64,000 nt of DNA from an uncultured Lachnospiraceae bacterium (lineage in GTDB: Bacteria; Bacillota; Clostridia; Christensenellales; UBA1242): contig CAYNTF010000003.1 of the NCBI GenBank assembly GCA_964400145.1, positions 75,370 to 139,369 on the forward strand, written 5' to 3'. Shown one piece after another: positions 12,131 to 62,858 of the stretch. The translations under genes were made by a program, and so were the position numbers. A model generated the notes under the pieces. It was not told the DNA's origin. It searched no databases and was given only the letters and a program-made list of their open reading frames with translations. Position 1 is the first letter of the stretch. The number at the start of each line of letters is the position of its first letter.

Positions 12131-13453
12131 TCAAGCCACTTGGTCAAACTCGTCACCGTTTTCAAGGTCAATGTTGTCTTCGTCATCAAATGTTCCAGCG
12201 CCTTCAACAATCTTCTCGGTCAAATAGCCACCTTCACCTGTGTGCGCTCTTGTTGCGTCAACATAATTGCTGTCAAAGGCAACATCACCAACCAAACTTG
12301 TGCAGTTATAGAACATATTTGTGCTGTCAGTCACTCTTGCAGTTGACCAACCTGTTCCCACATAAATTACTGTAAGAGTCTGACAATTATAAAACATCCT
12401 ACCCATATTTGTCACTCTGCTGGTGTTCCAACTTGACAGGTCTAATTCAGAGAGCTTTAAACAACGATAAAACATCATTTCCATGTTAACAACATTTCTT
12501 GTGTTCCAATTTGAAACATCAACATTTGTCAAATTTGTGCAATTACAAAACATATACTGCATATATTCCGCATTGCTGGTGTTCCAATTTGAAACATCAA
12601 CAGTTTCAATCGGAGTGCTATAAAACATAGCAACAAAATATATCACATTGCTCACATCCCAATTTGCAACATTTATTTCTGCTAATGACTGGCAAGCTTC
12701 AAACATACTCTGCATTCTTATCACTCTACCTACATTCCACTTTGAAACATCAAGTGTGTTTAGCAAGGTGCAACTATAAAACATCCAACCCATGTTAGTC
12801 ACATTGCTCACATCCCATTCTGAAACATCAAGAGTTGTCAGCAATCCGCAGTTATAAAACATATAACTCATATCCGTCACTTTGCTTGTATCAAAGCCAG
12901 AAACATCAAGTGTTGTCAAAGAATCGCAACCATAGAACATATAACTCATGTTTGTAACATTCTTTGTGTTGAAATTGTTCAGAACAATTTCTTCAACGGA
13001 TGCAAAATTATAGAATGCATATGACATGTCAGCATTCACAACAATATCTTTGGTTGAAAGGATATAGATTGTTGTTTCGTCATTGTCTGTAACGCGGTAT
13101 AACCCAATTTGTGCGCCGTTCCAAACATAACTTTCCGCTTCTTGCCCTTCCAAAACATTCACTCCGTTTTCGGTGTATGTGTATTCGCCGTCTTCGGTTT
13201 GGGTATACTCACCACTTTCGTCTTTGTCATAATAATCAAAGACAATTCTTGTCACTGTTTCGTTTTCTTCTTGATAATTCTCGTTATTTTTCAGCAATGT
13301 GTTCAAGTCTTGTCCGCTTGTTATGTCTGTTTTCTCCCCGCTTGAAAGATAAATTGGAAGAAAGATTGCCAGAAACAGAACTGCCACCACTGCCACAACC
13401 GATGCCGTGATAATCGCCACCTTCTTCTTTTTGTTTGTTTCATTTTCAGCCAT
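12131..13453 (-). CDS. DUF285/BspA-like leucine-rich-repeat surface protein, N-terminal TM anchor (paralog 1)
   Basis: Repeated ~25-aa units of the form NVTNMSYMFYGCxSLTTLDVSxWDxS. KKKK followed by a hydrophobic anchor. AAGGAGGT RBS. Confidence 0.85.
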   Translation of the reverse strand: MAENETNKKKKVAIITASVVAVVAVLFLAIFLPIYLSSGEKTDITSGQDLNTLLKNNENYQEENETVTRIVFDYYDKDESGEYTQTEDGEYTYTENGVNVLEGQEAESYVWNGAQIGLYRVTDNDETTIYILSTKDIVVNADMSYAFYNFASVEEIVLNNFNTKNVTNMSYMFYGCDSLTTLDVSGFDTSKVTDMSYMFYNCGLLTTLDVSEWDVSNVTNMGWMFYSCTLLNTLDVSKWNVGRVIRMQSMFEACQSLAEINVANWDVSNVIYFVAMFYSTPIETVDVSNWNTSNAEYMQYMFCNCTNLTNVDVSNWNTRNVVNMEMMFYRCLKLSELDLSSWNTSRVTNMGRMFYNCQTLTVIYVGTGWSTARVTDSTNMFYNCTSLVGDVAFDSNYVDATRAHTGEGGYLTEKIVEGAGTFDDEDNIDLENGDEFDQVA

Positions 13454-13518: not shown

Positions 13519-13545
13519 ATTATAGCATGCGGGGGGGGAACGCAA
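13519..13545 (-). promoter_or_regulatory. Extended -10 promoter with a C8 tract in the spacer: TTGCGT-T-C8-GCATGC-TATAAT
   Basis: Read directly from the minus strand. G8 at 13531-13538 on the + strand; TGC-TATAAT at 13527-13519; 15-bp spacer. Confidence 0.65.
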
Positions 13546-13582
13546 GCATTTTTAAAAATTTTCAGAAAAATTTTTAAAAATG
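13546..13582. repeat. AT-rich near-perfect 17-bp inverted repeat abutting the -35
   Basis: GCATTTTTAAAAATTTTC-AG-AAAAATTTTTAAAAATG. The same element recurs at 52285-52322. Confidence 0.7.
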
Positions 13583-28743: not shown

Positions 28744-29511
28744 TTAATCTTCGTCATCAAAATTTCTTCGTTTCATAATTTCATCAAACAACACACTTCG
28801 AACATTTGGCGGATAGGCTTTCAGCATTTTGTCAATCTCTTTCAAATCCAAATCCTTGATTTCATCAAAATCGAAATTGCCCGTTTTGCGCTTGGACTCA
28901 TCACGATAGTCATTTTCATTTTCTTCATCAATATCACTGTCCGATTCATCATCGAAATCGTCAAACAAATCGTCGGGTTCAAAATCTTTATCGTTGTGAA
29001 GGAAATCATCAAATTTATGATTTTTCATATTCTTGTAATATTTTTCCAAATCATCATAATCTTGCCCATCATCTTCATCATAATCGTTTTCATCATATTT
29101 ATCTTCAAAATCTTGTTCAAATTCTTCATCGTCTTGGTTGTCATCTTGTTCATATTCATCTTGCTCTTCATCGTCAAGTTTCAGATTTTTTCTTAAAAAC
29201 TTTTTATATTCGTCGGCTTTTTTGTTAAGTTCATTCTCTTCATGGCGAAAATTTTGCGAAAATGGAAAAAAACGAGATTTTGTCTTGTTTTTTTCTTCCA
29301 AATTGGACTCTTCAAGCGAAAAATTTTCAAGTTGCGCGTCAACATAATTCTCTTTTTCTTCCTGTTCAATTTCTTTTTCAACTTGTTGCATCTTCAATTT
29401 TTGTTCTTCACAAAACTTTTTGTAGCGCCTTTTATTTTTTAAATTATTTAGCACAAAAAACAAAGTCAGACCCACAAAAACTATGACAATCGCAACACAA
29501 TACAAAATCAT
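28744..29511 (-). CDS. Membrane-anchored, extremely acidic low-complexity protein, unknown function
   Basis: N-terminal TM segment, then a D/E/K/N-rich sequence. Occupies the yqfB position between floA and yqfC. Confidence 0.6.
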   Translation of the reverse strand: MILYCVAIVIVFVGLTLFFVLNNLKNKRRYKKFCEEQKLKMQQVEKEIEQEEKENYVDAQLENFSLEESNLEEKNKTKSRFFPFSQNFRHEENELNKKADEYKKFLRKNLKLDDEEQDEYEQDDNQDDEEFEQDFEDKYDENDYDEDDGQDYDDLEKYYKNMKNHKFDDFLHNDKDFEPDDLFDDFDDESDSDIDEENENDYRDESKRKTGNFDFDEIKDLDLKEIDKMLKAYPPNVRSVLFDEIMKRRNFDDED

Positions 29512-30681: not shown

Positions 30682-32679
30682 TTAAACTGTGGCTTGTGCC
30701 AACATTTGATAAATTGCGACTTTGAAATCATAATTTTGGACTTTGCCTTTTTCTTTGTCAATGTCAAAAAAGATTTCAATATAATCACATTCACCTAAAA
30801 ACTTTTCATAATTCAAAGTGCCATAAAAACCATAAGTCGACGACTCGTTGAGCATATAATACTCTCTCGCACTGCTTCCCGCCGTTATGAGCATACTTTT
30901 ATACTCACTGTCATCGTCGTCAATGCCTGTGCTGTTGGCATACGGGTCTATTGCACTGTTTCCAATATCTTTTTTAAATTCGCTCAAAATAAATCCATCG
31001 CCAATCTCATAATCTGTGCCGGTTCCAGTGTCACTGAAAGTCACAAAATGCGCTTCATAACTTTCTTCATAATCACTGCTGGTGTTATCTGTTGGAAGAG
31101 GTTCATAATCAATGGTTATTGACACAACATAATCTCCTTCACCGTTGTTTATCAAACCCGTCGAAGAGTTATAGTATCTCAATCCCACATTGATTGTTAT
31201 TGATTTACCATAATTTATGCCCTCAGGGTCATCTTCATCATAATATTCAAACACCAACCAAAGGTCACCAATCGCCTTTCCATAATCTTCTTCATTTGGA
31301 TATATGATGATGCTTTGATATTCCGCTGCTGGAATATACGCAAAAATGTCATCATCCGAATTATCTATGAATGCCGGTCCAAAATAATTGCCTTCATAGT
31401 CAGTGATTTGCGATGCCAAAAACGCCTGATCCAACGCCAAAGGTTCGCCATCCGAACTTGTGCCGATTGGCGCTTTTTCGCAAGCATACTCAATGATATT
31501 GTTTATGATTGCATCATAGTTGCGATTGAATTGCAAATCGCCACTTGAATTGTGAACTCCGTTTTCATAGTATGCCACAGTAAACTCGCTCTGCATGTAT
31601 GCGTCTTCGCCGATAATCACATCTTTAATAAAATCTGCCACTTGCTTCTTGTTCTCTTCGGTCAAACCAACATATCCACCCAAAGCCTCATACAATTCTT
31701 TGACGCGCGCAAGTGCCGATTTTGTTTGCTCGTCCCCTTTTGAAACGGAAATAGGCTCATTTTCCCAACCGCCAACCAAGACATCCGTCACTTGTCCATT
31801 TTCGTCATACACAATCGTGAATTCAAAATATTTGGCATCGTCATCATAATCATAATAATCATATCCCAGCACAAACAAATAGACAGCATATTCCAACGCG
31901 TCTTGGAAATAGTTAACCGCATCCCCAATGTTGCCACTTTCAGTCAAGTTATAATAAGGCGAAATCCAATAATAGACATTGTCATTCTTATTGTTAACAT
32001 AGCCATCTTCACCATAAGTATAGAACTCCGAGAAAGAAGAAAGATCAATATCTACCTCATATATATGAAACCAATCATCATAGTCATCTCCTGAAAAACT
32101 GAAAGAATTCCCACTGTTTATAACATCTGAAGCTTTTAAAAATACAATTTCTTTGTCTTTGGCATCATTGGAGATTGTCCAATTCCAAGCACTGTTTGTG
32201 TCAATTTCAACAACGATACTTTCAAGATTGTCGTCAACATAAACCTTCTCAACTTGAGTGATTGTGTATCTCAAACTGTCATACAGATAGTATAATTGAT
32301 CATCATCACTTGTTTCGGAAGAATATGTGTAACCATTTGATGTGTCAAGACTTTTGTAACCATTTTCAAGATCTGTTTCTGTTGGATTATAAATGATTGC
32401 TCTCACATCTTCATCTGTTCGCGAAGTTACGCTGTCATCTTCGTATACATTATATAACAAATTCAAAACTTCTCTTGCGAATAAGTTATAATAATTTTCG
32501 GAATAAACATCAACTGCCTCAGCAAAATCATAGTCGGCAGGTTTTGAAAGCACTTTCACCCCTTCCATGGATAACTCTGAATCATCCAAAAGACTGCTTG
32601 GACCGCCGTCCACGCATCCAACAAAGAACAAAAACATAAAACAAAACAAGAATGAAAGAAATCTTTTTTTATTCTTCAT
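30682..32679 (-). CDS. Large acidic D/Y/E-rich lipoprotein, unknown function
   Basis: Signal peptide with lipobox FFVGC; no recognisable domain. Confidence 0.7.
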   Translation of the reverse strand: MKNKKRFLSFLFCFMFLFFVGCVDGGPSSLLDDSELSMEGVKVLSKPADYDFAEAVDVYSENYYNLFAREVLNLLYNVYEDDSVTSRTDEDVRAIIYNPTETDLENGYKSLDTSNGYTYSSETSDDDQLYYLYDSLRYTITQVEKVYVDDNLESIVVEIDTNSAWNWTISNDAKDKEIVFLKASDVINSGNSFSFSGDDYDDWFHIYEVDIDLSSFSEFYTYGEDGYVNNKNDNVYYWISPYYNLTESGNIGDAVNYFQDALEYAVYLFVLGYDYYDYDDDAKYFEFTIVYDENGQVTDVLVGGWENEPISVSKGDEQTKSALARVKELYEALGGYVGLTEENKKQVADFIKDVIIGEDAYMQSEFTVAYYENGVHNSSGDLQFNRNYDAIINNIIEYACEKAPIGTSSDGEPLALDQAFLASQITDYEGNYFGPAFIDNSDDDIFAYIPAAEYQSIIIYPNEEDYGKAIGDLWLVFEYYDEDDPEGINYGKSITINVGLRYYNSSTGLINNGEGDYVVSITIDYEPLPTDNTSSDYEESYEAHFVTFSDTGTGTDYEIGDGFILSEFKKDIGNSAIDPYANSTGIDDDDSEYKSMLITAGSSAREYYMLNESSTYGFYGTLNYEKFLGECDYIEIFFDIDKEKGKVQNYDFKVAIYQMLAQATV

Positions 32680-32744: not shown

Positions 32745-34223
32745 TTATTTTGTGTATCCTATTTCTTTCAAAAGCGAAGTTGAAGAATAAAGGCTTCGAT
32801 TTCCGTTGTCAATTTCTTTTGTTGAATATACAGAAGCTTCCCAATATTTTGTGTTGCTTATAATATTGGCAATGGCATTTTTCTCACCCAAATATATTGA
32901 TGAAGCAACCCCCATTTGCAAAAGTTGCATTTGCCCATCAATTTCCACCAAATAATATTGGTCCCAAGAAGCGACATATCCATAAGTTGAACTTGCGTAC
33001 ACACCAAAAACCGGAGTTTTGAAAGCGTAATAAATCTTATCAACAGTCACCCCAGCTTTTTCAAGCACTCTTTCAGTCAATGCTTCAAACTCTTCTTTAT
33101 GCTCACTTTCATAGTCGTCATCCAAAGTTGTATATTCAACTTCCTGAGTGCTCTTTGTTCTATATTTGGTTTTTTTCATTGAATTTAAAAACTCTTTAAA
33201 TTCTTTTTGAGTTTGATACTCTCCATTCGCAAAACCGGTATAAAGATCGTCATCACCTATATAAGAGTATCTATAATATGTGTCGTCAAGTTTATCTGTG
33301 CAATGTTTCACGATAGTGCCAAATCCAATCATGTCAACATCTGCGTCAATATACAAAACCTCGCTGATGTAATAACTATCATCTGACGCCCTTTCAGAAA
33401 GAATATCTCTTCCAAACTGGTTGTCACCTAATATCCAAGGCACAAGAACTTCATAAATCGCAGAAATGTTGAAAATATAGTTTCCATTTGAATCGATTTC
33501 ATAGATGTTTTCGCCCTCTGCTGTGTCTTCAATTTCTGGCAAATCAACAACTGTCGTTCCAATGTCGGTGATAACAATTTCTTCATCAGAGAAATTCAAC
33601 AACATCTCGCCATTGCTGATTTGCATTGTCACTGTTTCGCCGTCAATGGTTCCGGTCAATATGTTGTTGTTCGCATCGAATTCAGTCCAGTTGATGTCTT
33701 TAAGGTCTGAAACAATGATAGAAACAGCCGTCGAAATATCAAGTTGGTCTGTGGAATTTTTCTGCCATGCACCATTTTCATATGTTATTGCATAATTGAC
33801 GCCGTCTTCAAGAACATAATAAGCCACCACTCCATTGTCATCAACTTCCACCATATCGCCGTCAAAATTATATAATGCATAATCCCCCGAAGAACTTGTG
33901 ATGGAATATGTGAAATTGCCATTTTCCATGGAACTGATATAAGAATTCACTGTGGCAACCGCTTCATCTAAATTGTCGCTTTCATCAAGATTGCTATCCA
34001 CCATTTTTTCAGATTGTTCCTCCACCTTGTTTTGCTCTGATTCACTTTGTTCTGACTCGTTGTAGGTATCTTCTGGAACAGTTTGAACAATTTGAATATC
34101 GTCCGAATTTGACTCATCAACATTTGAACTTGCTTGGCTCCCACACCCCACAAATTCAAAAGCGCTCACAACGGCGATGCCAGATGAAATTGCAAACAAT
34201 GCGAATTTTTTAAGATTTTTCAT
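32745..34223 (-). CDS. Lipoprotein, unknown function (family member A)
   Basis: Lipobox EFVGC; GGGAGG 8-9 nt before the second ATG. Shares the DIGTTVVxLPE C-terminal motif with the two downstream paralogs. Confidence 0.7.
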   Translation of the reverse strand: MKNLKKFALFAISSGIAVVSAFEFVGCGSQASSNVDESNSDDIQIVQTVPEDTYNESEQSESEQNKVEEQSEKMVDSNLDESDNLDEAVATVNSYISSMENGNFTYSITSSSGDYALYNFDGDMVEVDDNGVVAYYVLEDGVNYAITYENGAWQKNSTDQLDISTAVSIIVSDLKDINWTEFDANNNILTGTIDGETVTMQISNGEMLLNFSDEEIVITDIGTTVVDLPEIEDTAEGENIYEIDSNGNYIFNISAIYEVLVPWILGDNQFGRDILSERASDDSYYISEVLYIDADVDMIGFGTIVKHCTDKLDDTYYRYSYIGDDDLYTGFANGEYQTQKEFKEFLNSMKKTKYRTKSTQEVEYTTLDDDYESEHKEEFEALTERVLEKAGVTVDKIYYAFKTPVFGVYASSTYGYVASWDQYYLVEIDGQMQLLQMGVASSIYLGEKNAIANIISNTKYWEASVYSTKEIDNGNRSLYSSTSLLKEIGYTK

Positions 34224-34252
34224 TTTCATATCCTCCCTTTTTGTTTTTATTC

Positions 34253-34427: not shown

Positions 34428-35093
34428 ATTTTCTGCAAGTTTAGCTGAAATTACATCTTCACTCGTGTTGTCAATAACATTCTCAGGCAATGTCACAATC
34501 GTTGTTCCAATGTCACTGAAAACATACAATCCACCTGGGGCTTTATAGTAAATTTCCCCATTCTCAATTTTAATATCACTAGAAAATCCGACCATACTAT
34601 TTCCTGATAACACACCTTCTTCTTGATCATATGAGAACCACTTAATTGTTTTTGCTAATATCATTGGATAGCTTCGTATATCATCTATAAGAGTTGCATT
34701 TTCCAAAATCCTACTACTCCAATAGCCATCATCATCCTTACGTATTTGATAAACCACACCATTTTCAGTGTAATAATAATAACTCTTTCCCAAATATGTG
34801 TATTCAACCAAATCGTTATCAAGTTTAAAATAGTACTCCAATTCTTGACTATCCGTATTATAACAAGTTAAAGTAAAATTGCTCCCTTCTTGAACAGCAA
34901 CCAAGCATTCAGTTACTTCTGCAACTGCATTTTCAAAAAGTTCTTCTTGCCCTTTTTCTTCTTCACTTTTGGACAAGCCACACCCAGCAAAAGCGAATGC
35001 TGTCGTCAAAGAAATTCCAGAAGCAAGCGCAAATGTGACAAATTGTTTAAGATTTTTAATTTTCCTATCCCCCCTTTTTTGTTTTTTATTCAT
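34413..35093 (-). CDS. Lipoprotein paralog P1; start codon uncertain (ATG 35093 or ATT 35060)
   Basis: Lipobox FAFAGC; ~50-60% identical by eye to P2. ATG 35093 overlaps the predicted -10 element. Confidence 0.6.
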   Translation of the reverse strand: MNKKQKRGDRKIKNLKQFVTFALASGISLTTAFAFAGCGLSKSEEEKGQEELFENAVAEVTECLVAVQEGSNFTLTCYNTDSQELEYYFKLDNDLVEYTYLGKSYYYYTENGVVYQIRKDDDGYWSSRILENATLIDDIRSYPMILAKTIKWFSYDQEEGVLSGNSMVGFSSDIKIENGEIYYKAPGGLYVFSDIGTTIVTLPENVIDNTSEDVISAKLAENDKVL

Positions 35094-35233: not shown

Positions 35234-35266
35234 CAAAAAAGACAAGGGGCGTTAAAGCACCTTGTC
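35234..35266 (-). terminator. Terminator overlapping the P2 stop codon
   Basis: Duplicate of the terminator at 34395-34427. Confidence 0.6.
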
Positions 35267-35896
35267 AGTTTCTGCAAGTTTAGTTGTTGAAATTTCATCT
35301 TCAGTCGTGTCGTCAATGACATTCTCAGGCAATGTCACAGTCGTTGTTCCAATGTCACTGAAAACACACAATCCACCTGGGGCTTTATAGTAAATTTCCC
35401 CATTATTTACACTCATTTGAATTGAATAGCCATCTTGTGTTCCTGACAATACATTTTCTTCTTCATTATATGACGACCAGTTAATTGTTTCTAATAATGT
35501 TGTTGAAAAAGTACGGAAAATTTCAATAAAATATGGGTCATCCATAATTTCAGTCTTCCAATATCCATCGTCATCCTGCGACATTTGATAAAGGATATCA
35601 TTTTCAGTGTAACAATATTTAAGATCACCTAAATATAGATACTCCACTAAATCACCATCAAATTTGAAATAATAGACCAGTCGATTATTAAGATATCTAG
35701 TATAAGTGAAATTATTCATTTCTTGAACAGCAGTCAAGCGTTCTGTTACTTCTTCAACCGCGTTTTCAAAAACTTCTTCTTGCCTTTTTTCTTCTTCACT
35801 CATGAACAACTCACACCCAGCAAAAGCGAATGCTGTGGTTAGAGAAATTCCGGAAGCAAGCGCAAGTGTGGCAAATTTTTTAAGATTTCCTTTCAT
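35252..35896 (-). CDS. Lipoprotein paralog P2
   Basis: Lipobox FAFAGC. A G7 run (35903-35909) acts as the SD, 6 nt before ATG 35896. Confidence 0.7.
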   Translation of the reverse strand: MKGNLKKFATLALASGISLTTAFAFAGCELFMSEEEKRQEEVFENAVEEVTERLTAVQEMNNFTYTRYLNNRLVYYFKFDGDLVEYLYLGDLKYCYTENDILYQMSQDDDGYWKTEIMDDPYFIEIFRTFSTTLLETINWSSYNEEENVLSGTQDGYSIQMSVNNGEIYYKAPGGLCVFSDIGTTTVTLPENVIDDTTEDEISTTKLAETDKVL

Positions 35897-35923
35897 AAAC
35901 ATCCCCCCCTTCTTCCTATGTCA

Positions 35924-42735: not shown

Positions 42736-42901
42736 GATAGAAATCAAAATTTAATCTAAATTAAAAACATAAAAAATAAAATAAAAAATGAAATAGGGAA
42801 TGAAAAAGATAACTATAAAAACAAAATAAATCAAACAATTAAATCGCCTAAAAAACAGATTAAAACAAAAAAAGTGACATCAATTTGTCACTTTTTTTCG
42901 A

Positions 42902-43912
42902 TCAATCTTTATCTTTGCCGTCACGCTTTTCATTCACATGGAACTCTTCATCATAAAGTTTTCTGCTTCTTTCATTCAAAATATTTTTTTTATCAGGGAT
43001 TTCTCTCCCCAAAGCTTTCAATTCATTGCAAAATCTTTTCACTTCATTGTCATAAATGTAGGTAAAATCTTTATAAATCTTTCTTGTATCACGCGCTATT
43101 TTTTTAAATAAAGCATCTTCTTCATTTAACCCTTCTTGCTTTTCTCTCATTGAGTCAAGAAGTCCATCGCAAGCATGATTATAACATATTGTATAATTAT
43201 TTAAATTAATTGAGTCATCACAGGCGATAATATCAGAAATTCTGGCTTGACCATCTGGAAGTTCTGCCACTTCTGACAACCTAAGCATCAATTTGACACT
43301 TTCTGAAAACTCTGTGCTGATTTTAAGATATCTGAAAAGCTCCGGATCTTCCTTTACCATATCAAAAAGTTTTGTATCAAACCCGCTGTAACCATTATTA
43401 CCAGTTATATAAATTGTATCACTATGTTTAATTATCTCTTCTTTTTTGTCAGTAGTTTTCGAAACGGCGGTTTTTGGAGCAGCGTTTTTGTTTTGTTTAG
43501 CGCCGGCCGTTGCTGTCATCTCTATCAATTCATCAACACTTTGTGGAACTTTTTCCGTTGGCTTTTTCTCAACAACCTTTCCAAAAACTTCTTTGTCAAT
43601 ATCATCGTTGTAAAACTCAATAGAATTTAACTGACTTGCGATTTCAAGAATCATGTGATTTTCCTCTTTGGAAAATCTCTTTCCAGAGCGTGAGTTTTGA
43701 ATTTTGACATCCGAAAACTGTTGAGATAAGCGCTCAACATCCCGTCTTGTTTTAGCAATATTTTTTTCAATCTTTTGCTTTTGTTTATCGGTGAATTTTT
43801 GATTTATCGGTGAAAACATATCTTTGCTAAACATTTGGCTAACAGCAGCCAAATTATTCTTGCATTCATTCAATTTTGCATGTATGTTCGTCAATTTTTT
43901 AATTGTGTTCAT
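42902..43912 (-). CDS. Hypothetical protein, 336 aa; coiled-coil N-terminus; no signal peptide
   Basis: Long ORF; GGGGAAATG start context 8 nt after the upstream gene's stop. No motif I recognise. Confidence 0.7.
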   Translation of the reverse strand: MNTIKKLTNIHAKLNECKNNLAAVSQMFSKDMFSPINQKFTDKQKQKIEKNIAKTRRDVERLSQQFSDVKIQNSRSGKRFSKEENHMILEIASQLNSIEFYNDDIDKEVFGKVVEKKPTEKVPQSVDELIEMTATAGAKQNKNAAPKTAVSKTTDKKEEIIKHSDTIYITGNNGYSGFDTKLFDMVKEDPELFRYLKISTEFSESVKLMLRLSEVAELPDGQARISDIIACDDSINLNNYTICYNHACDGLLDSMREKQEGLNEEDALFKKIARDTRKIYKDFTYIYDNEVKRFCNELKALGREIPDKKNILNERSRKLYDEEFHVNEKRDGKDKD

Positions 43913-43920
43913 TTCCCCTC

Positions 43921-44445
43921 CTAGTCCCCGAGAGTTTTGCCATCACTAATTTTATAAGTGTGACTCATGATTGGTTTTGGTTCAGAATATTCTCTTTCGG
44001 TTGCATAATTCAAAAAAACTGAACCATATTCATCTGTTTGCATAACTTGCCTTTCAACATAATCGCTTTCACTGACATCCACCTTAATTTGCCCGTTGCT
44101 TAAAAGACCAAGTTTTTGGATAGTCTTGCCAAAATCCTCAACTTTTTTGCCTAATTTTGACATGAATTCATCTCGTGCACACGCATATGCACCATTTTCA
44201 AAAAAGAATTTTTCAACAAATTGCCTAAATGATGAATCATATTTGTTGAAAATCACTTCTTCAAGGTCTTCAAAAAGCCCAAAATTGTCATTCCAACTTC
44301 TTCTTCCAAACCTATTATCGCCTTCGATGGACATTTGAATGCAAATTGTGTTCCCATTTTGCTCTTTTGCAAGAGGGTTGGTTGAAGGCTTCATAAAGTC
44401 ACCTCCAATCTCAAAATCAAATTGGTCATGTGTTCTTGTATTCAT
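43921..44445 (-). CDS. Hypothetical protein, ~174 aa; no signal peptide
   Basis: GGAGGT 8 nt before ATG 44445 (MNTRTHDQ...). The ATG at 44460 is too close to the -10 element. Confidence 0.7.
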   Translation of the reverse strand: MNTRTHDQFDFEIGGDFMKPSTNPLAKEQNGNTICIQMSIEGDNRFGRRSWNDNFGLFEDLEEVIFNKYDSSFRQFVEKFFFENGAYACARDEFMSKLGKKVEDFGKTIQKLGLLSNGQIKVDVSESDYVERQVMQTDEYGSVFLNYATEREYSEPKPIMSHTYKISDGKTLGD

Positions 44446-44471
44446 TGTTTTTACCTCCATTATTTTTTGCC

Positions 44472-44500
44472 ATTATAGCACGGGGGGGGGAACTTGTCAA
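44472..44500 (-). promoter_or_regulatory. Perfect consensus promoter TTGACA-17-TGcTATAAT with a C9 tract in the spacer
   Basis: Minus strand reads TTGACA AGTT C9 GTGC TATAAT. G9 lies at 44482-44490 on the + strand. Confidence 0.75.
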
Positions 44501-44872
44501 GTATTTTTTTAAAAAAGTTTATTTTTTGTTTAATTTCACTATTTTTGTCAATTTTTTTTGATTTTGACAATTTTTTGGTTATGATTTTGGCAAGTTTTTG
44601 AATGTTTCTTACTTTTTTGTTTCTTTTCATTTTTTCTAAATTTTCGTTAACTTTCTTCATTTTAGCAATGTTTTGGCTAAACAAAAATTTAAACAATAAA
44701 AATATATAACAAAAAACAAGTCAAGAAATCACCTAAACAAACATAAAAACATAATAACATAATAAACAAAAAACAACTCACCAAATGTAAAACAAACCAA
44801 GTTCAAAACAACTTAACAAGGCGAAATAAAGAAGATAAAGAATAATTCGGAATAAAAATTTAAGTAAATATA

Positions 44873-44912
44873 ATAAAAAAAAGACCACCAGCGGAAAATG
44901 GTCTTTTTTTTG
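44873..44912. terminator. tuf terminator (bidirectional)
   Basis: AAGACCA/TGGTCTT stem flanked by A8 and T8. Confidence 0.75.
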
Positions 44913-48472: not shown

Positions 48473-49033
48473 TTATTTGGTTTTTATACCATTATATTCA
48501 AGTATAGATTTGCTTTTACTTACATACTTATTATAATTATCCAAATATGTTCGTCCAAAAGCATTCGTCATCTCAGAAACAAAAGCATTTTGAGAAATCT
48601 CTTCTTGTTTTCGTTCTTCTTGAGAAGTTTGGAAATGTAAATTTCCTTTACTATCACTTTCCATAATAGGAAAATCTTGAGCAATCAAATTTTTATTCTG
48701 TTTATATGAACTATTAAGCAATAGATTTGTAAAGTGTAAATTATAATCGCTTATTGATACATAACCCACCTTCTGCTCTTCCATTGTTTTTTTGTTCAAT
48801 TTAATGATTTTTAACATTACTATTTTTTCATTTTTGCTGTAATCAACTCTTTTTATACATCCAGCAACTTTTTTATATTCATAATTCAAAATTTCATAGA
48901 ACATGCTGTCATACCATTCTTTTGGATAATGCATCTCCGTTGATTTTTTTGCAATATATTTAATATTGTCATCGTTTAGCAAGTCTAAATATCCATTGAT
49001 AAAATAATCTAAATGGTGATTTCTAACGGTCAT
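48473..49033 (-). CDS. Hypothetical 186-aa protein inserted between rpsG and fusA
   Basis: AAAGGAGAG 6 nt before the ATG; clean ORF. Much more AT-rich than its neighbours. No motif I recognise. Confidence 0.7.
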
Positions 49034-50705: not shown

Positions 50706-52091
50706 TCAGTCATTGTCACCGTCAAGGTTGCCAGTGGCTTTTTCGCTGATGTCGGTCAAATAGCCATAAGCCTGCAACTCTTCTTTGTATCCAGCATAGG
50801 CGTATGTTTTGTTCGTGACACTTCCATTTTCAGTGAAATTTGGAAGAGATGTGCATCTAGAGAACATTGATGAATCAGTTTCAACCGCATCTGTTGACCA
50901 GCCTTCACCAACATAGATTGTTTCAAGGCTTGTGCAACCAGTGAACATACAATACATATTCGTCACTTTGCTGGTGTCAAAGCTTGAAATGTCTATTGAA
51001 GTCACATTTCCTAAACCTGCAAACATATATTCCATGTCTGTCACATCACTTGTGTTAAAATTCGACAAATCTAATTCTCCAGTTAAACCTGCCCAAGCAA
51101 ACATCCATTTCATATCTGTGGCACTGCTGGTGTTCCAATTTGAAAGAAAATCAATTCCTGTCAATTTAAAGCAGTTAAAAAACATACCATTAAATTCCTT
51201 CACATTGCTTACATCCCAATTTGATATATCACCAAAATTTGTTAACTTTTCACAAGTACCAAACATCCAACTCATGCTTGTCACACTGCTTACATCCCAA
51301 TTTGAAAGGTCAACTTCTTCCAAAGCGCTACAGCCACTGAACAAATTAAACATTTCTATCACATTGCTTGTATCCCACTTGGAAACATCAATAGTTGTCA
51401 AAGAACTGCAGTGGAGAAACAAAGACCCCATACTTGTCACATTACTCGTGTTCCAATTTGAAACATCAAGTTCGTCTAAAGATCTACAACCTGCAAACAT
51501 TGTCCACATGCTTGTCACATTGCTCACATCCCACTTGGAAACATCAAGCGTTGTCAAAGAACTGCAATTATAAAACATCCACCCCATATCTGTCACACTG
51601 CTTGTGTTGAAATTGTTGAAAGCAATCTCTTCAACGGATGTAAAATTATAGAATGAATATGATGCATCTTCATTTGCAACAATTTCTTCGGTTGAAAGGA
51701 TGTAGATTGTTGTGTCAACGCGATATAAGTCAATCTGTGTTTTGTTCCAAGTGTATGACTCCGCTGTTTGCCCTTCCAAAACATTTACATCATCTTCGGT
51801 GTAAGTATAGTTGCCATCCTCGGTTTGTGTATAGGCACCACTTTCGTCTTTGTCATAGTAGTCAAAAACAATTCTCTTCACTGTGGTGTCTTCCGCTGTG
51901 TAACTATCACTTTTTTTCAACAATGTGTTCAAAGTCGAACCGCTTGGCAAATTTGTGTTGTCTGTTTCACTTGATTTTTGAGTGAGATAGATTGGAAGAA
52001 AAATCGCCAGAAACAGAACCGCCACCACGCCTACAACTGACGCTGTGATGATTGCCACCTTTTTCTTTTTGTTTGTTTCATTTTCAGCCAT
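50706..52091 (-). CDS. DUF285/BspA-like leucine-rich-repeat surface protein (paralog 2)
   Basis: The same N-terminal ~170 aa as paralog 1 (MAENETNKKKKVAIITASVV...); divergent repeats of the form SVTDMGWMFYNCSSLTTLDVSKWDVSNVT. Confidence 0.85.
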   Translation of the reverse strand: MAENETNKKKKVAIITASVVGVVAVLFLAIFLPIYLTQKSSETDNTNLPSGSTLNTLLKKSDSYTAEDTTVKRIVFDYYDKDESGAYTQTEDGNYTYTEDDVNVLEGQTAESYTWNKTQIDLYRVDTTIYILSTEEIVANEDASYSFYNFTSVEEIAFNNFNTSSVTDMGWMFYNCSSLTTLDVSKWDVSNVTSMWTMFAGCRSLDELDVSNWNTSNVTSMGSLFLHCSSLTTIDVSKWDTSNVIEMFNLFSGCSALEEVDLSNWDVSSVTSMSWMFGTCEKLTNFGDISNWDVSNVKEFNGMFFNCFKLTGIDFLSNWNTSSATDMKWMFAWAGLTGELDLSNFNTSDVTDMEYMFAGLGNVTSIDISSFDTSKVTNMYCMFTGCTSLETIYVGEGWSTDAVETDSSMFSRCTSLPNFTENGSVTNKTYAYAGYKEELQAYGYLTDISEKATGNLDGDND

Positions 52092-52256: not shown

Positions 52257-52284
52257 ATTGTAGCATGCGGGGGGGGGAAGGCAA
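52257..52284 (-). promoter_or_regulatory. Extended -10 promoter with a C9 tract in the spacer: TTGCCT-T-C9-GCATGC-TACAAT
   Basis: G9 at 52269-52277 on the + strand; 16-bp spacer. Confidence 0.6.
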
Positions 52285-52322
52285 GCATTTTTAAAAATTT
52301 TCAGAAAATTTTTTAAAAATGC
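52285..52322. repeat. AT-rich inverted repeat abutting the -35 (copy of 13546-13582)
   Basis: GCATTTTTAAAAATTTTC-A-GAAAATTTTTTAAAAATGC. Confidence 0.7.
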
Positions 52323-57225: not shown

Positions 57226-57825
57226 ATGGAAAATATTTTTAAAAATAAAAAAGGTTGGTTGACAGGACTTCTAATCGCCCTGATAGTTCTCACCGCCTTA
57301 AATTTTATAGTCACCATGATTGATTATGGCTCTCATTTGCAATCTGCGGAAAATTATGTTGTTTTAACAATCACAACAATCATCGAAATTCTGATATATT
57401 CTTTTGCGATATGTGCGTTGTTGAAAAATGATAATTTTTGGTGCAAAACATTGTTTATTATCGTTTTTTCATACATTTTTCTCAACTGTCTTTTGACATT
57501 TATAACCGCAATTTACTATTTTTCATATAACACAATTTATGTTTTTTATGGCATCGGACAAATCATTGACTGCCTGTTGGTTGTTGCAATCGGCGTGGTG
57601 TATTTGCTGACCAAATACGGAACAATCAAAAATGAAAGAGTTGTCAACATTCTGCTATACATTCGTCTGGTAATGATTTTAATCAATTTCATAATAGGCA
57701 TAATCATGATTGCACAAGATTATCTTAATTGGATAACAATCACAACATTTTTCATGGACGCCATTTTGACAATAATATATTTCCTAGCAATCAACGACCA
57801 TGCTCCAAAATCTTTGAACGGATAA
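57226..57825 (+). CDS. Polytopic membrane protein, unknown function
   Basis: GAAGGAG RBS; about 5-6 hydrophobic segments. Confidence 0.6.
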   Translation: MENIFKNKKGWLTGLLIALIVLTALNFIVTMIDYGSHLQSAENYVVLTITTIIEILIYSFAICALLKNDNFWCKTLFIIVFSYIFLNCLLTFITAIYYFSYNTIYVFYGIGQIIDCLLVVAIGVVYLLTKYGTIKNERVVNILLYIRLVMILINFIIGIIMIAQDYLNWITITTFFMDAILTIIYFLAINDHAPKSLNG

Positions 57826-61316: not shown

Positions 61317-62858
61317 TCAAACCAAATTGAAATAAATTGAGCCGTTGGTATAAATTGTCATTATTCCATTTGTGCCACTTTCATTGGCGTTTACTTCAAG
61401 CGGATTGTTTGAATCCCCCGACAAGTTTCCAATTTCAACATGAATTTTACTGCTGTTGCCATCAAGTTGATTTCTGTTTGCATCATACATCGTCGCTGTG
61501 AATTTTGCCGAACTTGTTATGTTGATTGTCACATTTCCGCTTGTGCTGTCAATGACCACACCAACAACACCTCCCGATGTTCCTGTGGCTGCTGAAACCG
61601 AACCGTTAAAGGTCAAAACGATGTTCCCTGAGCCATTTTGTATGTCGATAATTTCGTTGTTGCCGTCTGCGATTGTCAAATTGACAGAAAGTTTGCCACC
61701 ACTTCGGCTGTTGACTTCCACTTCGCCCATAACTTCGCCGACAGTCAAGTTTCCGTCATCTGCGTAAACAATCAAATCACCTGTGATTTTTGCAATATTC
61801 AAACTTGGCGCACTGTCGTCATCATCGGCATAAAAACTGAAATTGCCATATATCGCATTTCTCACTGTGATGTTTGGCGATATGACAGTGTTTATTGAGT
61901 CACCAAAGGACAGATTTCCGTAAACTTCTGTGAAAACATAGTTGCCTTGCTCGCACGAAGAGAACATTGTTGAATCTGCAACAAGATATCCAATGGCAAC
62001 ATTCCCCGTCTTGCAAGTGATTTCAACATCGTTTTCATTTGAATATGCGGATGCATCAACCTTCAAAATGTTTAAGTCTATCGTCCCTTTTTGTGTTTCA
62101 AAATACACAGGACAATCAACATCAAGACCTGTTCCTGTCTTGGTTTCTTCATTAGTGGTTGTTATTGTCACACTTTTTCTTGAAGTTATATCGCCACTTG
62201 TGGTTTTCAGCGAGATGTTTTTCAGCACATCTGTGTCCAACCTGTTTGTGATTGTTATATCCCCGCTTTCTGTTGTGACATCAACTGACTTTATTTTTGT
62301 CAGTTCTGTGTTCGTTCCCGCATTGAAAGAACCACCCAAATTCACAGACCCATCTGTTGTTATGATTTTGATGTTGATGTTTTCAAAATTTATATCACTG
62401 TTCTCTCGTGCATGCAAAACGATTGTCACGCTTTTGGAGAAATAAAGAAACCCTGTCGGTTCTGTGACCTCAACGGTCAATTTTTTGCCAGAACTTGAAA
62501 GTGTTGCCGTGTAACTGAACTGCACAGCATTGCTTGCCGCCGTGAAACCTTTTGCGCCATTTTTGATGAATATTCCGTCTTGCTTGTATGAATCGTTGTC
62601 ATCTTTTTCAATAATCACATCTGCGTATGAACATGTGATGTCAATTTCTTCCAATTCATCCCAATTTATTGTTGTGCCATTGCTGTCTTGCGTGCTTATC
62701 ACTTTTGTTTCATTGGAAGAAAAATATTGCAACCAAAGGACACTTTTGCCCGGATTAAAAATCATAATCACGACGCAAACCATAAACACCGCGAACAAAA
62801 CCAAAACAAACAATCCAAAATAGAAGAAAAACCCTTTTCTAATCTGTCCTTGTGGCAT
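61317..62858 (-). CDS. Membrane-anchored beta-helix repeat protein (DUF4097/putative adhesin-like)
   Basis: N-terminal TM segment; recurring SGDITI/GNVxI/GNLTV turns typical of DUF4097 repeats. Confidence 0.55.
   Translation of the reverse strand: MPQGQIRKGFFFYFGLFVLVLFAVFMVCVVIMIFNPGKSVLWLQYFSSNETKVISTQDSNGTTINWDELEEIDITCSYADVIIEKDDNDSYKQDGIFIKNGAKGFTAASNAVQFSYTATLSSSGKKLTVEVTEPTGFLYFSKSVTIVLHARENSDINFENINIKIITTDGSVNLGGSFNAGTNTELTKIKSVDVTTESGDITITNRLDTDVLKNISLKTTSGDITSRKSVTITTTNEETKTGTGLDVDCPVYFETQKGTIDLNILKVDASAYSNENDVEITCKTGNVAIGYLVADSTMFSSCEQGNYVFTEVYGNLSFGDSINTVISPNITVRNAIYGNFSFYADDDDSAPSLNIAKITGDLIVYADDGNLTVGEVMGEVEVNSRSGGKLSVNLTIADGNNEIIDIQNGSGNIVLTFNGSVSAATGTSGGVVGVVIDSTSGNVTINITSSAKFTATMYDANRNQLDGNSSKIHVEIGNLSGDSNNPLEVNANESGTNGIMTIYTNGSIYFNLV

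What the first reader, a model, noticed from the sequence alone, without database searches (positions are those of the whole stretch)
42902..44445. Orphan two-gene operon of unknown function under the C9-tract promoter
Two tightly linked ORFs of ~174 aa and 336 aa sit 8 nt apart. They lie between an M18 aminopeptidase gene and the tuf terminator. Neither has a signal peptide, TM segment or any motif I recognise. The larger protein has a coiled-coil N-terminus, a Lys/Thr/Ala-rich linker and a Cys/His-containing C-terminal domain (CDDSINLNNYTICYNHACDG). The other two tract-bearing promoters in this window drive surface proteins. A cytoplasmic pair under the same kind of switch is unexpected. It would fit a phase-variable regulator, a defence or abortive-infection module, or a toxin-immunity pair.
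Basis: inference. Interest (0 to 1): 0.7.

Follow-up and report, generated by a model that had tools for sequence, protein, structure and literature searches.

The report
Slippage-tuned promoter driving a hypervariable protein pair
A real two-gene operon of unknown protein families sits behind a perfect promoter whose spacing is set by a run of nine Cs. In related gut Clostridia the same run varies (7, 8 or 9 Cs) between otherwise identical strains, which makes this a stochastic expression dial on a fast-evolving accessory protein.

Summary
On the minus strand, a 174-aa gene (43921-44445) and a 336-aa gene (42902-43912) lie 8 nt apart between two terminators. Their promoter is TTGACA-AGTT-C9-GTGC-TATAAT, a 12/12 consensus match with a 17-nt spacer and a TG motif.

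No Pfam, NCBIfam, PADLOC, PHROG, PDB, phage or plasmid match exists. The pair is not a strict orphan, however. It is conserved in at least two other lineages of uncultured Clostridia at about 30% identity, with dN/dS of 0.14-0.31.

One sister lineage keeps the same promoter design. Across 21 assemblies its tract is C7 (5), C8 (6), C9 (5) or an interrupted 9-mer (5). Two assemblies identical over 1.6 kb differ only in tract length. That is strong comparative evidence for a porA/opc-type slippage rheostat giving 15-, 16- or 17-nt spacers.

In the sister lineage, amino-acid variation in the large protein is confined to a central domain (37 N : 11 S versus 3 N : 24 S elsewhere, p=3e-8). The small partner does not co-vary. 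One strain carries a nonsense allele.

I read this as a dispensable contingency locus whose cargo faces a fast-evolving antagonist. The biochemical function is unresolved. The mechanism is of a known kind in a new host and protein family.

The parts
44504..44516 (-). T6A7 block (ttttttaaaaaaa) 3 nt upstream of the -35. It looks like an UP element, or it may be a shared cassette motif.
   Evidence: Read from the sequence. A T5-6/A4-7 block sits in the same place in the other two tract promoters of the window and in both promoter copies of the sister lineage. It is absent immediately upstream of the -35 in the 4 other perfect consensus promoters of the window. Function is inferred.
44495..44500 (-). 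-35 hexamer TTGACA
   Evidence: Promoter scan gave 12 of 12 matches. The hexamer is conserved in homologous loci.
44482..44490 (-). C9 homopolymer inside the 17-nt spacer (AGTT-C9-GTGC). It is the proposed slippage-prone length dial.
   Evidence: The homologous tract in the sister lineage is C7, C8, C9, C3TC5 or C4TC4. It is C9 in all 3 assemblies of this organism.
44472..44481 (-). GTGC + TATAAT: extended -10 (TG motif) and -10 hexamer
   Evidence: 'TG_before_second: yes'. GTGY-TATAMT is conserved in the sister lineage.
44454..44458 (-). Ribosome-binding site GGAGG, 8 nt before the ATG at 44445
   Evidence: Read from the sequence.
43921..44445 (-). Small gene, 174 aa. The protein is acidic (pI 4.8), hydrophilic and of no known family. 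It is the partner of the large protein.
   Evidence: It is a weak but collinear homologue of the upstream small genes of the related operons (hhalign E=5e-4 over 103 columns). L004 versus L007 small proteins give E=1e-17. dN/dS in the sister lineage is 0.14-0.31.
43913..43923 (-). Junction TAG-GAGGGGAA-ATG. The stop codon overlaps the GGAGG RBS of the large gene, an arrangement compatible with translational coupling.
   Evidence: Read from the sequence.
42902..43912 (-). Large gene, 336 aa. It has a conserved helical N-terminal domain (residues ~1-115) and a K/T/A-rich linker. The central domain (~145-267) is poorly conserved and is hypervariable in the sister lineage. A helical C-terminal region and a K/D tail follow.
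   Evidence: Regional identity to homologues is 43-44% for the N-terminal domain against 15-23% for the linker and central part. Diversifying pattern. Residue mapping.
42867..42898 (-). Intrinsic terminator of the operon
   Evidence: 13-pair stem followed by a T run.
44875..44911 (-). tuf terminator. It insulates the operon from upstream transcription.

Best explanation
This is a contingency locus: an autonomous, terminator-bounded two-gene operon whose transcription level is set stochastically by the length of a poly-C tract in the spacer of a sigma-A promoter that is otherwise perfect.

With C9 the spacer is the optimal 17 nt, so the window shows the fully ON state. Loss of one or two Cs by slipped-strand mispairing gives 16-nt and 15-nt spacers, which should give reduced and near-off expression. 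The extended -10 TG motif probably leaves some residual activity, so the switch behaves as a rheostat rather than a strict on/off.

The cargo is a soluble protein pair with no recognisable enzyme domain. The large protein has conserved N- and C-terminal helical regions, which I take to be the scaffold or assembly part. They frame a central domain that is the specificity or recognition surface, and this domain evolves under diversifying selection. The small acidic protein is a constant partner, perhaps a chaperone or adaptor.

The locus is dispensable. I infer that the pair acts at an interface with a fast-evolving antagonist. Both proteins lack any export signal, so my favoured reading (about 30%) is an intracellular phage-sensing or exclusion module. 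Its cost or counter-selection would then be managed by switching.

Status of each step:
- Shown: operon anatomy, promoter quality, conservation of the pair, tract-length polymorphism in the sister lineage, localised excess of amino-acid polymorphism, and a nonsense allele.
- Inferred: the effect of spacer length on transcription, reversibility, switching in this organism itself, the protein-protein partnership, and the biological role.

The confidence given (0.6) is for the contingency-locus reading as a whole. The promoter-switch part alone I put at about 0.85, and the phage-related role at about 0.3.
For: Anatomy: the promoter is a 12/12 match with a 17-nt spacer and a TG motif, there are terminators on both sides and strong RBSs.

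The genes are real. Homologous small+large pairs occur in different genomic contexts, with dN/dS of 0.14-0.31.

The switch is supported as follows.
- The sister-lineage operon promoter has the same design. Its tract is C7 x5, C8 x6, C9 x5, C3TC5 x3 and C4TC4 x2 in 21 assemblies from different samples.
- L015 and L018 have 0 differences in 1600 nt downstream and 80 nt upstream, yet carry C8 and C7.
- Every interrupted, slippage-resistant allele has a total length of 9, which is the 17-nt spacing. This points to 17 nt as the functional ON state.
- A second copy of the cassette in that lineage varies independently: C7, C8, C9 and C4TC4.
- The promoter core is about 83% identical between the window and L007, while the proteins share about 30% identity.
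- Homopolymers between -35 and -10 are an established phase-variation mechanism in porA, opc and fetA (PMC2791445).

The cargo faces an antagonist. Amino-acid polymorphism is confined to residues 151-275 (37 N: 11 S versus 3 N: 24 S, Fisher p=3e-8). pN/pS exceeds 1 at residues 211-270, and pN is 0 in the N- and C-terminal parts.

The locus is dispensable. L029 has an in-frame TAA together with a C7 promoter.

Accessory character: GC3 is 0.29-0.30 against 0.33-0.48 for the neighbouring housekeeping genes, sepF (0.32) excepted, the insertion site differs in each lineage, and one strain has a transposase-like gene downstream.
Against: - No tract variation has been seen in the window's own lineage. 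There are only 3 assemblies, all C9 and probably from one study.
- Tract lengths come from consensus assemblies, not from reads, so within-population switching and reversibility are not shown.
- The L004 lineage runs the homologous operon from a tract-less promoter, so switching is not intrinsic to the module.
- There is no positive evidence for a phage-related role. PADLOC and PHROG gave no hit, there is no effector-like domain, and there is no defence-island context. A consensus-strength promoter would be unusual for a toxic abortive-infection system.
- The diversifying-selection signal comes from the sister lineage and is transferred to the window protein by homology.
- Recombination between alleles could inflate that signal.
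- The AlphaFold models are uninformative, with pLDDT of 45 and 35.
Confidence: 0.6

Rival explanations
1. The large protein is a surface or extracellular structural antigen of the cell or spore, exported or deposited without a classical signal peptide. The small acidic protein is its chaperone. The layout resembles flagellin: conserved terminal helices build the assembly and the hypervariable middle is exposed. Switching and hypervariability would then serve evasion of host antibodies or of phages that use the protein as a receptor.
For: The protein has conserved N- and C-terminal helical regions with a hypervariable centre. The very strong promoter and RBS are typical of abundant structural proteins. 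The other tract promoters in this genome drive surface proteins. The organisms appear to be spore formers: YqfD is in the window, and spoIIR, sipL, sleB and ypeB lie next to the sister locus. Spore-surface proteins need no signal peptide. The small partner is acidic, like secretion chaperones (pI 4.8-5.8 in two of the three lineages, 6.3 in L004).
Against: There is no signal peptide, TM segment, sortase motif or cell-wall-binding domain, and no Flagellin, WXG or LXG Pfam match. No secretion genes are adjacent. The promoter is a textbook sigma-A promoter, not a mother-cell sigma-E or sigma-K type, which argues against a late spore-coat protein (read from the sequence).
Confidence: 0.25
2. In this organism the C9 run is simply a fixed, C-rich spacer of a strong constitutive promoter. 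It could also be a binding site for an unknown factor. The operon would then be expressed constitutively, and the tract-length differences in the sister lineage would be neutral drift or assembly noise.
For: All three assemblies of this lineage have C9. C9 gives exactly the optimal 17-nt spacing. Interrupted 9-mers show that a stable 17-nt spacer is viable and sometimes favoured. The L004 lineage has no tract at all.
Against: C7, C8 and C9 alleles occur at comparable frequencies across more than 20 independent samples, with invariant flanks. One pair is identical over 1.6 kb. Two cassette copies on the same contig differ independently. Runs of C8 or longer are strongly over-represented in this 37% GC window, and all three sit in promoter spacers. 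A C9 run retained at the same position across lineages whose proteins share only about 30% identity is not expected for a neutral spacer.
Confidence: 0.12
3. A phase-variable regulator or cell-differentiation factor. For example, a coiled-coil adaptor acting on division, morphology or sporulation, whose ON/OFF states create subpopulations.
For: The proteins are cytoplasmic, coiled-coil and helical-bundle rich, and non-enzymatic. In the sister lineage the neighbour under the second cassette copy is a generic coiled-coil protein. It gives only sub-threshold coiled-coil matches, ZapB and DivIC among many unrelated ones. Sporulation genes lie nearby.
Against: A hypervariable central domain with pN/pS above 1 is not expected of an internal regulator that contacts conserved cellular machinery. 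The module is dispensable and has a very narrow distribution. There is no DNA-binding or signalling domain.
Confidence: 0.1
4. A toxin-antitoxin or toxin-immunity pair.
For: It is a two-gene operon with a small gene first. The distribution is sporadic, the insertion sites vary and the genes are AT-rich.
Against: One small-gene sequence, identical at the DNA level, accompanies four different large-gene alleles, so the variable domain is not co-evolving with the partner. No toxin, antitoxin or immunity family matches. A nonsense allele truncates the large gene while the small gene stays intact. The sizes (174 + 336 aa) and the long disordered linker are atypical.
Confidence: 0.05

Closest known systems
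Neisseria meningitidis porA / opc / fetA promoters (homopolymeric tract between -35 and -10)
   Same: A poly-G or poly-C run sits in the promoter spacer. Slipped-strand gain or loss of single bases changes the -35/-10 spacing and gives high, medium or low expression (PMC2791445). Here a C7-C9 run gives 15-, 16- or 17-nt spacers in a TTGACA/TATAAT promoter, with natural length polymorphism.
   Different: The hosts are uncultured, apparently spore-forming, low-GC Clostridia rather than Gram-negative mucosal pathogens. The cargo is a signal-less soluble protein pair, not an outer-membrane protein. The promoter is a reusable cassette with a T/A block, duplicated within one locus. Switching rates and expression effects have not been measured.
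Mycoplasma variable surface protein systems (vlp poly-A promoter tracts; poly-G tracts 5' of M. agalactiae spma genes; DUF285 'drp' family)
   Same: These are also low-GC Firmicutes-related genomes that use homopolymer tracts near promoters of variable genes. DUF285 proteins are part of the variable surface repertoire there (PMC2824730). In this window, two DUF285 genes sit behind C8 and C9 promoters.
   Different: Those cargos are lipoproteins with signal peptides. The pair studied here has none and has no sequence relationship to them.
Flagellin-type architecture (conserved terminal helices, hypervariable central domain, no signal peptide, often phase-variable)
   Same: The pattern of conservation along the large protein is the same, and there is no signal peptide.
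   Different: There is no Flagellin_N or Flagellin_C match or any other sequence similarity. There are no flagellar genes nearby. This is a resemblance of design only, recalled from general knowledge.
Two-gene abortive-infection/defence modules of Firmicutes (e.g. lactococcal Abi systems), some defence systems being phase-variable
   Same: The genes are small, AT-rich, sporadically distributed, dispensable accessory operons of unknown fold. A hypervariable domain is typical of sensors in an arms race.
   Different: There is no match to any of the 5027 PADLOC models or to PHROGs. No effector domain is present. The locus is embedded among housekeeping genes rather than in a defence island.

Membership tests
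SSR promoter-spacer phase variation (porA/opc type) | Homopolymeric tract located between the -35 and -10 hexamers of a recognisable promoter | tested here: met
   TTGACA-AGTT-C9-GTGC-TATAAT, a 12/12 match with a 17-nt spacer.
SSR promoter-spacer phase variation (porA/opc type) | Tract length differs between closely related genomes while the flanks stay the same | tested here: met
   Met in the sister lineage: C7, C8 and C9 plus interrupted alleles in 21 assemblies. L015 and L018 are identical over 1.68 kb but carry C8 and C7. Not observed in the window's own lineage, where all 3 assemblies have C9.
SSR promoter-spacer phase variation (porA/opc type) | Tract length changes transcription level | not testable with these tools
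   Inferred from the known spacer-length dependence of sigma-70/sigma-A promoters. All interrupted alleles keep the 17-nt spacing, which is indirect support.
SSR promoter-spacer phase variation (porA/opc type) | High-frequency, reversible switching within a clonal population | not testable with these tools
   This needs read-level data or culture. Contig breaks at the tract turned out to be caused by a duplicated promoter cassette, not by heterogeneity.
Known anti-phage defence systems (PADLOC) | Match to a defence-protein model | tested here: not met
   0 families at E<=1 for both proteins.
Known anti-phage defence systems (PADLOC) | Location in a defence island or mobile element | tested here: not met
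   The neighbours are tuf and an M18 peptidase (window), rseP and rimP-nusA-infB (L004), and sporulation genes and ppdK (L030). There are no flanking repeats. No phage, plasmid or viral-contig homologues were found.
Toxin-antitoxin / toxin-immunity pair | Recognisable toxin, antitoxin or immunity domain | tested here: not met
   No Pfam, NCBIfam or PADLOC match.
Toxin-antitoxin / toxin-immunity pair | Co-variation of the two partners | tested here: not met
   A small gene of identical DNA sequence is paired with four large-gene alleles.
Type VII secretion substrates (WXG100/LXG with small partners) | WXG100 or LXG domain or W-x-G motif; T7SS genes nearby | tested here: not met
   No Pfam match at E<=1. 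No conserved W-x-G is visible in the alignments. No T7SS genes are in the fetched flanks. Whole genomes were not searched.
Flagellin | Flagellin_N / Flagellin_C domains | tested here: not met
   No match. Only the conservation pattern is similar.
Diversity-generating retroelement target | Template repeat matching the variable region, with a nearby reverse transcriptase | tested here: not met
   No repeat of the variable region within 21 kb. No RT among the neighbours.

The most novel reading that the evidence does not exclude
Uncultured spore-forming gut Clostridia may carry a portable phase-variable promoter cassette: a T/A block, a -35, a C7-9 tract, a TG motif and a -10. The cassette has been kept across lineages whose cargo proteins share only about 30% identity. 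It is duplicated within loci and is sometimes locked ON by a C-to-T interruption. One of its cargos is a new family of signal-less proteins with an ultra-conserved helical frame and a positively selected central domain. That cargo could be a new type of phase-variable anti-phage sensor. Alternatively it could be a new, non-classically displayed surface or spore filament subunit.
Probability: 0.25. Interest if true: 0.75.

Novelty: new member of a known kind. Interest (0 to 1): 0.55.

Why it matters
Homopolymer-spacer promoter switches are textbook for Neisseria, Haemophilus, Bordetella and mycoplasmas. My literature searches found no description of them in commensal, spore-forming Clostridia.

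This locus gives a clean, comparatively validated example in that group. It includes natural 'locked' alleles and a duplicated cassette. It also points to a small set of switch-controlled genes in these uncultured organisms: two BspA/DUF285 surface proteins plus this pair.

The cargo is an uncharacterised protein family with a sharp signature of diversifying selection. It is therefore a concrete candidate for a new host- or phage-interaction determinant.

The practical lesson is that tract-length polymorphism across public assemblies can be used to call contingency loci in uncultured bacteria.

Tried and rejected
- Family and structure searches on both proteins and their homologues gave only sub-threshold coiled-coil noise. 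This covered Pfam, NCBIfam, PADLOC and PHROGs and PDB profile searches. A Spore_Cse60 hit at E=0.017 for the sister small protein is too weak to use.
- The k-mer-indexed search of 5.8 billion proteins found only self-matches. Exhaustive HMMER found the two distant relatives. A profile re-search added nothing.
- Single-sequence AlphaFold models were poor (pLDDT 45 and 35). The Foldseek hits were generic three-helix bundles.
- Viral contigs, phage genomes and plasmids contained no relatives.
- Rfam found no riboswitch or leader in the 5' region.
- DGR and mobile-element hypotheses were rejected, because there are no template or flanking repeats.
- I first read contigs beginning inside the tract as evidence of within-sample heterogeneity. 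I withdrew this after finding that a second copy of the promoter cassette explains the assembly breaks.
- A metal-binding Cys/His motif was rejected because it is not conserved.
- The Lys-rich ORF (66 aa as called by Logan; 78-aa open frame at 44460-44696) that reads through the tract was judged spurious. It has no RBS and is not called in the sister loci.
- Looking for other strains of the window organism through its DUF285 proteins failed, because the exact products are not on record.
- Sample accessions could not be traced in the literature, so the habitat is unverified.
Full report
**1. What is there**

The finding lies on the minus strand. The ORF listing gives a 336-aa ORF at 42902..43912 and an upstream ORF at 43921..44460.

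The credible start of the upstream gene is the ATG at 44445, which gives 174 aa. A GGAGG lies 8 nt before it, whereas the alternative 179-aa ATG overlaps that ribosome-binding site. The two genes are 8 nt apart. The sequence TAG-GAGGGGAA-ATG places the second RBS over the first stop codon.

The unit is insulated. The tuf terminator lies upstream at 44911-44875 and the operon's own terminator lies downstream at 42898-42867. Downstream, on the other strand, is an M18 aminopeptidase (Pfam E=3e-84).

The promoter is TTGACA-AGTT-CCCCCCCCC-GTGC-TATAAT. This is a 12/12 consensus match with a 17-nt spacer and an extended -10 TG. The C9 run occupies 44482-44490.

Runs of C8 or longer occur at three sites in the 37% GC window, against 0.18 pattern matches expected by chance. 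All three sit in promoter spacers. The other two drive paralogous DUF285/BspA-LRR proteins with N-terminal membrane anchors.

**2. Are the genes real, and are they orphans?**

Neither protein matches Pfam, NCBIfam, PADLOC or PHROGs. Neither has a solved relative by sequence. Both are hydrophilic and have no hydrophobic segment.

The indexed search of 5.8 billion proteins returned only the proteins themselves. An exhaustive HMMER scan found two distant relatives of the large protein: P0006 (E=1e-20) and P0007 (E=2e-19).

In both cases an unannotated 143-147-aa gene lies immediately upstream. Those two small proteins are clearly homologous to each other (E=1e-17). The window's small protein aligns with them collinearly at the profile level (E=5e-4 over 103 columns).

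The P0007 lineage is well populated. Its 90% clusters hold 47 large-protein variants and 36+14 small-protein variants from many metagenomes. One member is a MAG titled 'uncultured Clostridia bacterium'. Within that lineage dN/dS is 0.14-0.31 for both genes.

The pair is therefore a genuine, conserved two-gene module of a small unannotated family, and not a strict orphan.

The genomic context differs in each lineage:
- tuf and the M18 peptidase in the window;
- rseP on one side and rimP-nusA-infB on the other in L004;
- a sporulation-gene neighbourhood and ppdK in L030.

The window organism is a Firmicute that carries the sporulation gene yqfD, along with SepF, FloA, Ku and DnaB_2/DnaI-type proteins.

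**3. The promoter is the best-conserved part, and its tract varies**

In the P0007 lineage the operon is preceded by TTGACA-ATTA-Cn-GTGT-TATACT. This is the same design as in the window, including a T/A block just upstream of the -35. The core is about 83% identical to the window's promoter, although the proteins share only about 30% identity.

I fetched 21 assemblies with a complete promoter from different samples. The tract is C7 in 5, C8 in 6 and C9 in 5. It is an interrupted 9-mer in 5 (CCCTCCCCC x3 and CCCCTCCCC x2), and the flanks are almost invariant.

L015 and L018 show no difference in 1600 nt downstream and 80 nt upstream, but they carry C8 and C7. Every interrupted allele has a total length of 9 and so keeps the optimal 17-nt spacer. 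Interruptions suppress slippage, so these look like independently 'locked-ON' alleles.

A second copy of the cassette (TTGACT-TCTA-Cn-GTGT-TATACT) lies right after the large gene in that lineage. It drives a 108-116-aa coiled-coil protein, and its tract varies independently: C7, C8, C9 and C4TC4.

That duplication also explains why several contigs begin inside the tract. I had first taken those breaks as a sign of heterogeneity, and I withdrew that reading.

The third lineage (L004) has a tract-less TTGACA-N18-TAGAAT promoter.

In the window's own lineage all three available assemblies show C9.

Homopolymers between -35 and -10 that modulate expression by slipped-strand changes of spacing are established for porA, opc and fetA (PMC2791445). 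The comparative data fit that mechanism well. The effect on transcription and the reversibility remain inferred.

**4. What the proteins look like**

The large protein has an N-terminal domain of about 115 residues that is predicted to be helical. It is 43-44% identical across lineages. A low-complexity K/T/A-rich linker follows. The central region is poorly conserved (15-23% across the linker and central part). A helical C-terminal region and a K/D-rich tail complete the protein.

Among 11 distinct alleles of the sister lineage, amino-acid polymorphism is confined to residues 151-275: 37 non-synonymous against 11 synonymous states. The rest of the protein has 3 against 24 (Fisher p=3e-8). Sliding-window pN/pS exceeds 1 at residues 211-270, and pN is 0 in the terminal regions despite synonymous variation there. 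This segment maps to residues ~145-267 of the window protein.

The small gene does not co-vary. One identical small-gene DNA sequence accompanies four different large-gene alleles.

One strain (L029) combines a C7 promoter with an in-frame stop at codon 270 of the large gene. The module is therefore dispensable.

The genes are AT-richer at third codon positions than the neighbouring housekeeping genes, sepF excepted (GC3 0.29-0.30 against 0.33-0.48).

No DGR-like template or flanking repeats are present. No phage, plasmid or viral relatives were found.

**5. Interpretation**

Four features define a contingency locus:
- a slippage-tuned, otherwise consensus promoter;
- natural locked alleles;
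- a loss-of-function allele;
- a sharply localised excess of amino-acid change.

Expression is diversified stochastically because the product is sometimes advantageous and sometimes costly. The variable domain is engaged with a rapidly changing partner.

Both proteins lack export signals. I therefore slightly favour an intracellular, phage-facing role as a sensor or exclusion module. In that reading the large protein is the specificity component and the small one a constant partner.

This is inference only. There is no defence-family match, no effector domain and no defence-island context.

A signal-less surface or spore-surface structural antigen is nearly as likely. Its flagellin-like layout of conserved terminal helices around a variable centre fits the data. 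The strong promoter and the surface-protein cargo of the sister promoters in this genome also fit. The sigma-A-type promoter argues against a late spore-coat protein.

A toxin-immunity pair is disfavoured by the lack of co-variation. A regulator is disfavoured by the hypervariability.

A residual possibility is that the C9 run is fixed and not used as a switch in this particular organism.

**6. Novelty and verdict**

The regulatory mechanism is of a known kind. The host group, the portable and duplicated cassette, and the unannotated hypervariable cargo are new. My literature searches found no prior description of such promoter tracts in Clostridia.

I rate it a new member of a known kind, of moderate interest (0.55). 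About one chance in four remains that the cargo is a new class of phage-defence or surface-display protein.

Noticed in passing
window 13531-13538 (-) and 52269-52277 (-); genes 12131-13453 (-) and 50706-52091 (-): Two paralogous promoters share about 100 nt of upstream sequence. They read TTGCGT-T-C8-GCATGC-TATAAT (15-nt spacer) and TTGCCT-T-C9-GCATGC-TACAAT (16-nt spacer). Both drive DUF285/BspA-LRR proteins with nearly identical N-terminal membrane anchors. Both spacers are shorter than optimal, so these copies may be in low-expression states, and C10 or C11 would restore 17 nt.
   Followed up: partly
window 44504-44516 (-), 13545-13565 (-), 52285-52305 (-); sister loci e.g. L019:1425-1450 and 3115-3142: Every C-tract promoter has a T5-6/A4-7 palindromic block 3-6 nt upstream of its -35. 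This holds for all three in the window and for both cassette copies in the sister lineage. The four other perfect TTGACA-N17-TATAAT promoters of the window lack it at that position. It could be an UP element or a protein-binding site that belongs to the cassette.
   Followed up: partly
L009:3396-3767, L011-L029 (about 1.7 kb downstream of the first cassette): The sister lineage has a second, independently varying copy of the poly-C promoter cassette. It drives a 108-116-aa generic coiled-coil protein with only sub-threshold coiled-coil Pfam matches, ZapB and DivIC among many unrelated ones. This gene is absent from the window and from L030/L031. In L030/L031 the first promoter instead carries the second cassette's core (TTGACT-TCTA-CCCCTCCCC), which suggests recombination or gene conversion between the copies.
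   Followed up: partly
L029:1948-3054: The large gene is split by an in-frame TAA at codon 270. The same locus has a C7 tract, and the base just 3' of the tract is A instead of G. This looks like a decaying or off-locked allele.
   Followed up: yes
window 44460-44696 (-): A Lys-rich open frame (78 aa from its TTG start) ends by reading through the C9 tract (...FPPPCYNGKK). Logan called it as a 66-aa gene from an internal ATG. It has no RBS and is not called in the sister lineage, so it is probably an artefact of A-rich sequence.
   Followed up: partly
window 35903-35909 (G7 on the - strand) before ORF 35252-35902 (-): A G7 run forms the Shine-Dalgarno region directly before the start of a 216-aa predicted lipoprotein (lipobox AFAGC) with no Pfam family. 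A C6/G6 run lies at 35069-35074 inside the next ORF. These may be further slippage-prone sites.
   Followed up: no
window 30682-32679 (-), 32745-34229 (-), 61317-62858 (-), 28744-29511 (-), 57226-57825 (+), 48473-49033 (-): Several sizeable ORFs (186-665 aa) have no Pfam match at all. This organism carries many unannotated proteins.
   Followed up: no
L002 (SRR7039263) gene 1111-2163 = P0003: The 350-aa 'variant' of the large protein in the protein collection is the same DNA sequence with the TGA stop read through as Trp. This is a gene-calling artefact (wrong genetic code), not a real isoform.
   Followed up: yes
L030:7141-9283 (-), L008:4341-5270 (-): Two unannotated genes of 286-309 aa and 366-395 aa lie upstream of the sister operon and are transcribed divergently from it. 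Their sizes vary between strains and they have no family match. They have no counterpart in the window (tblastn).
   Followed up: partly
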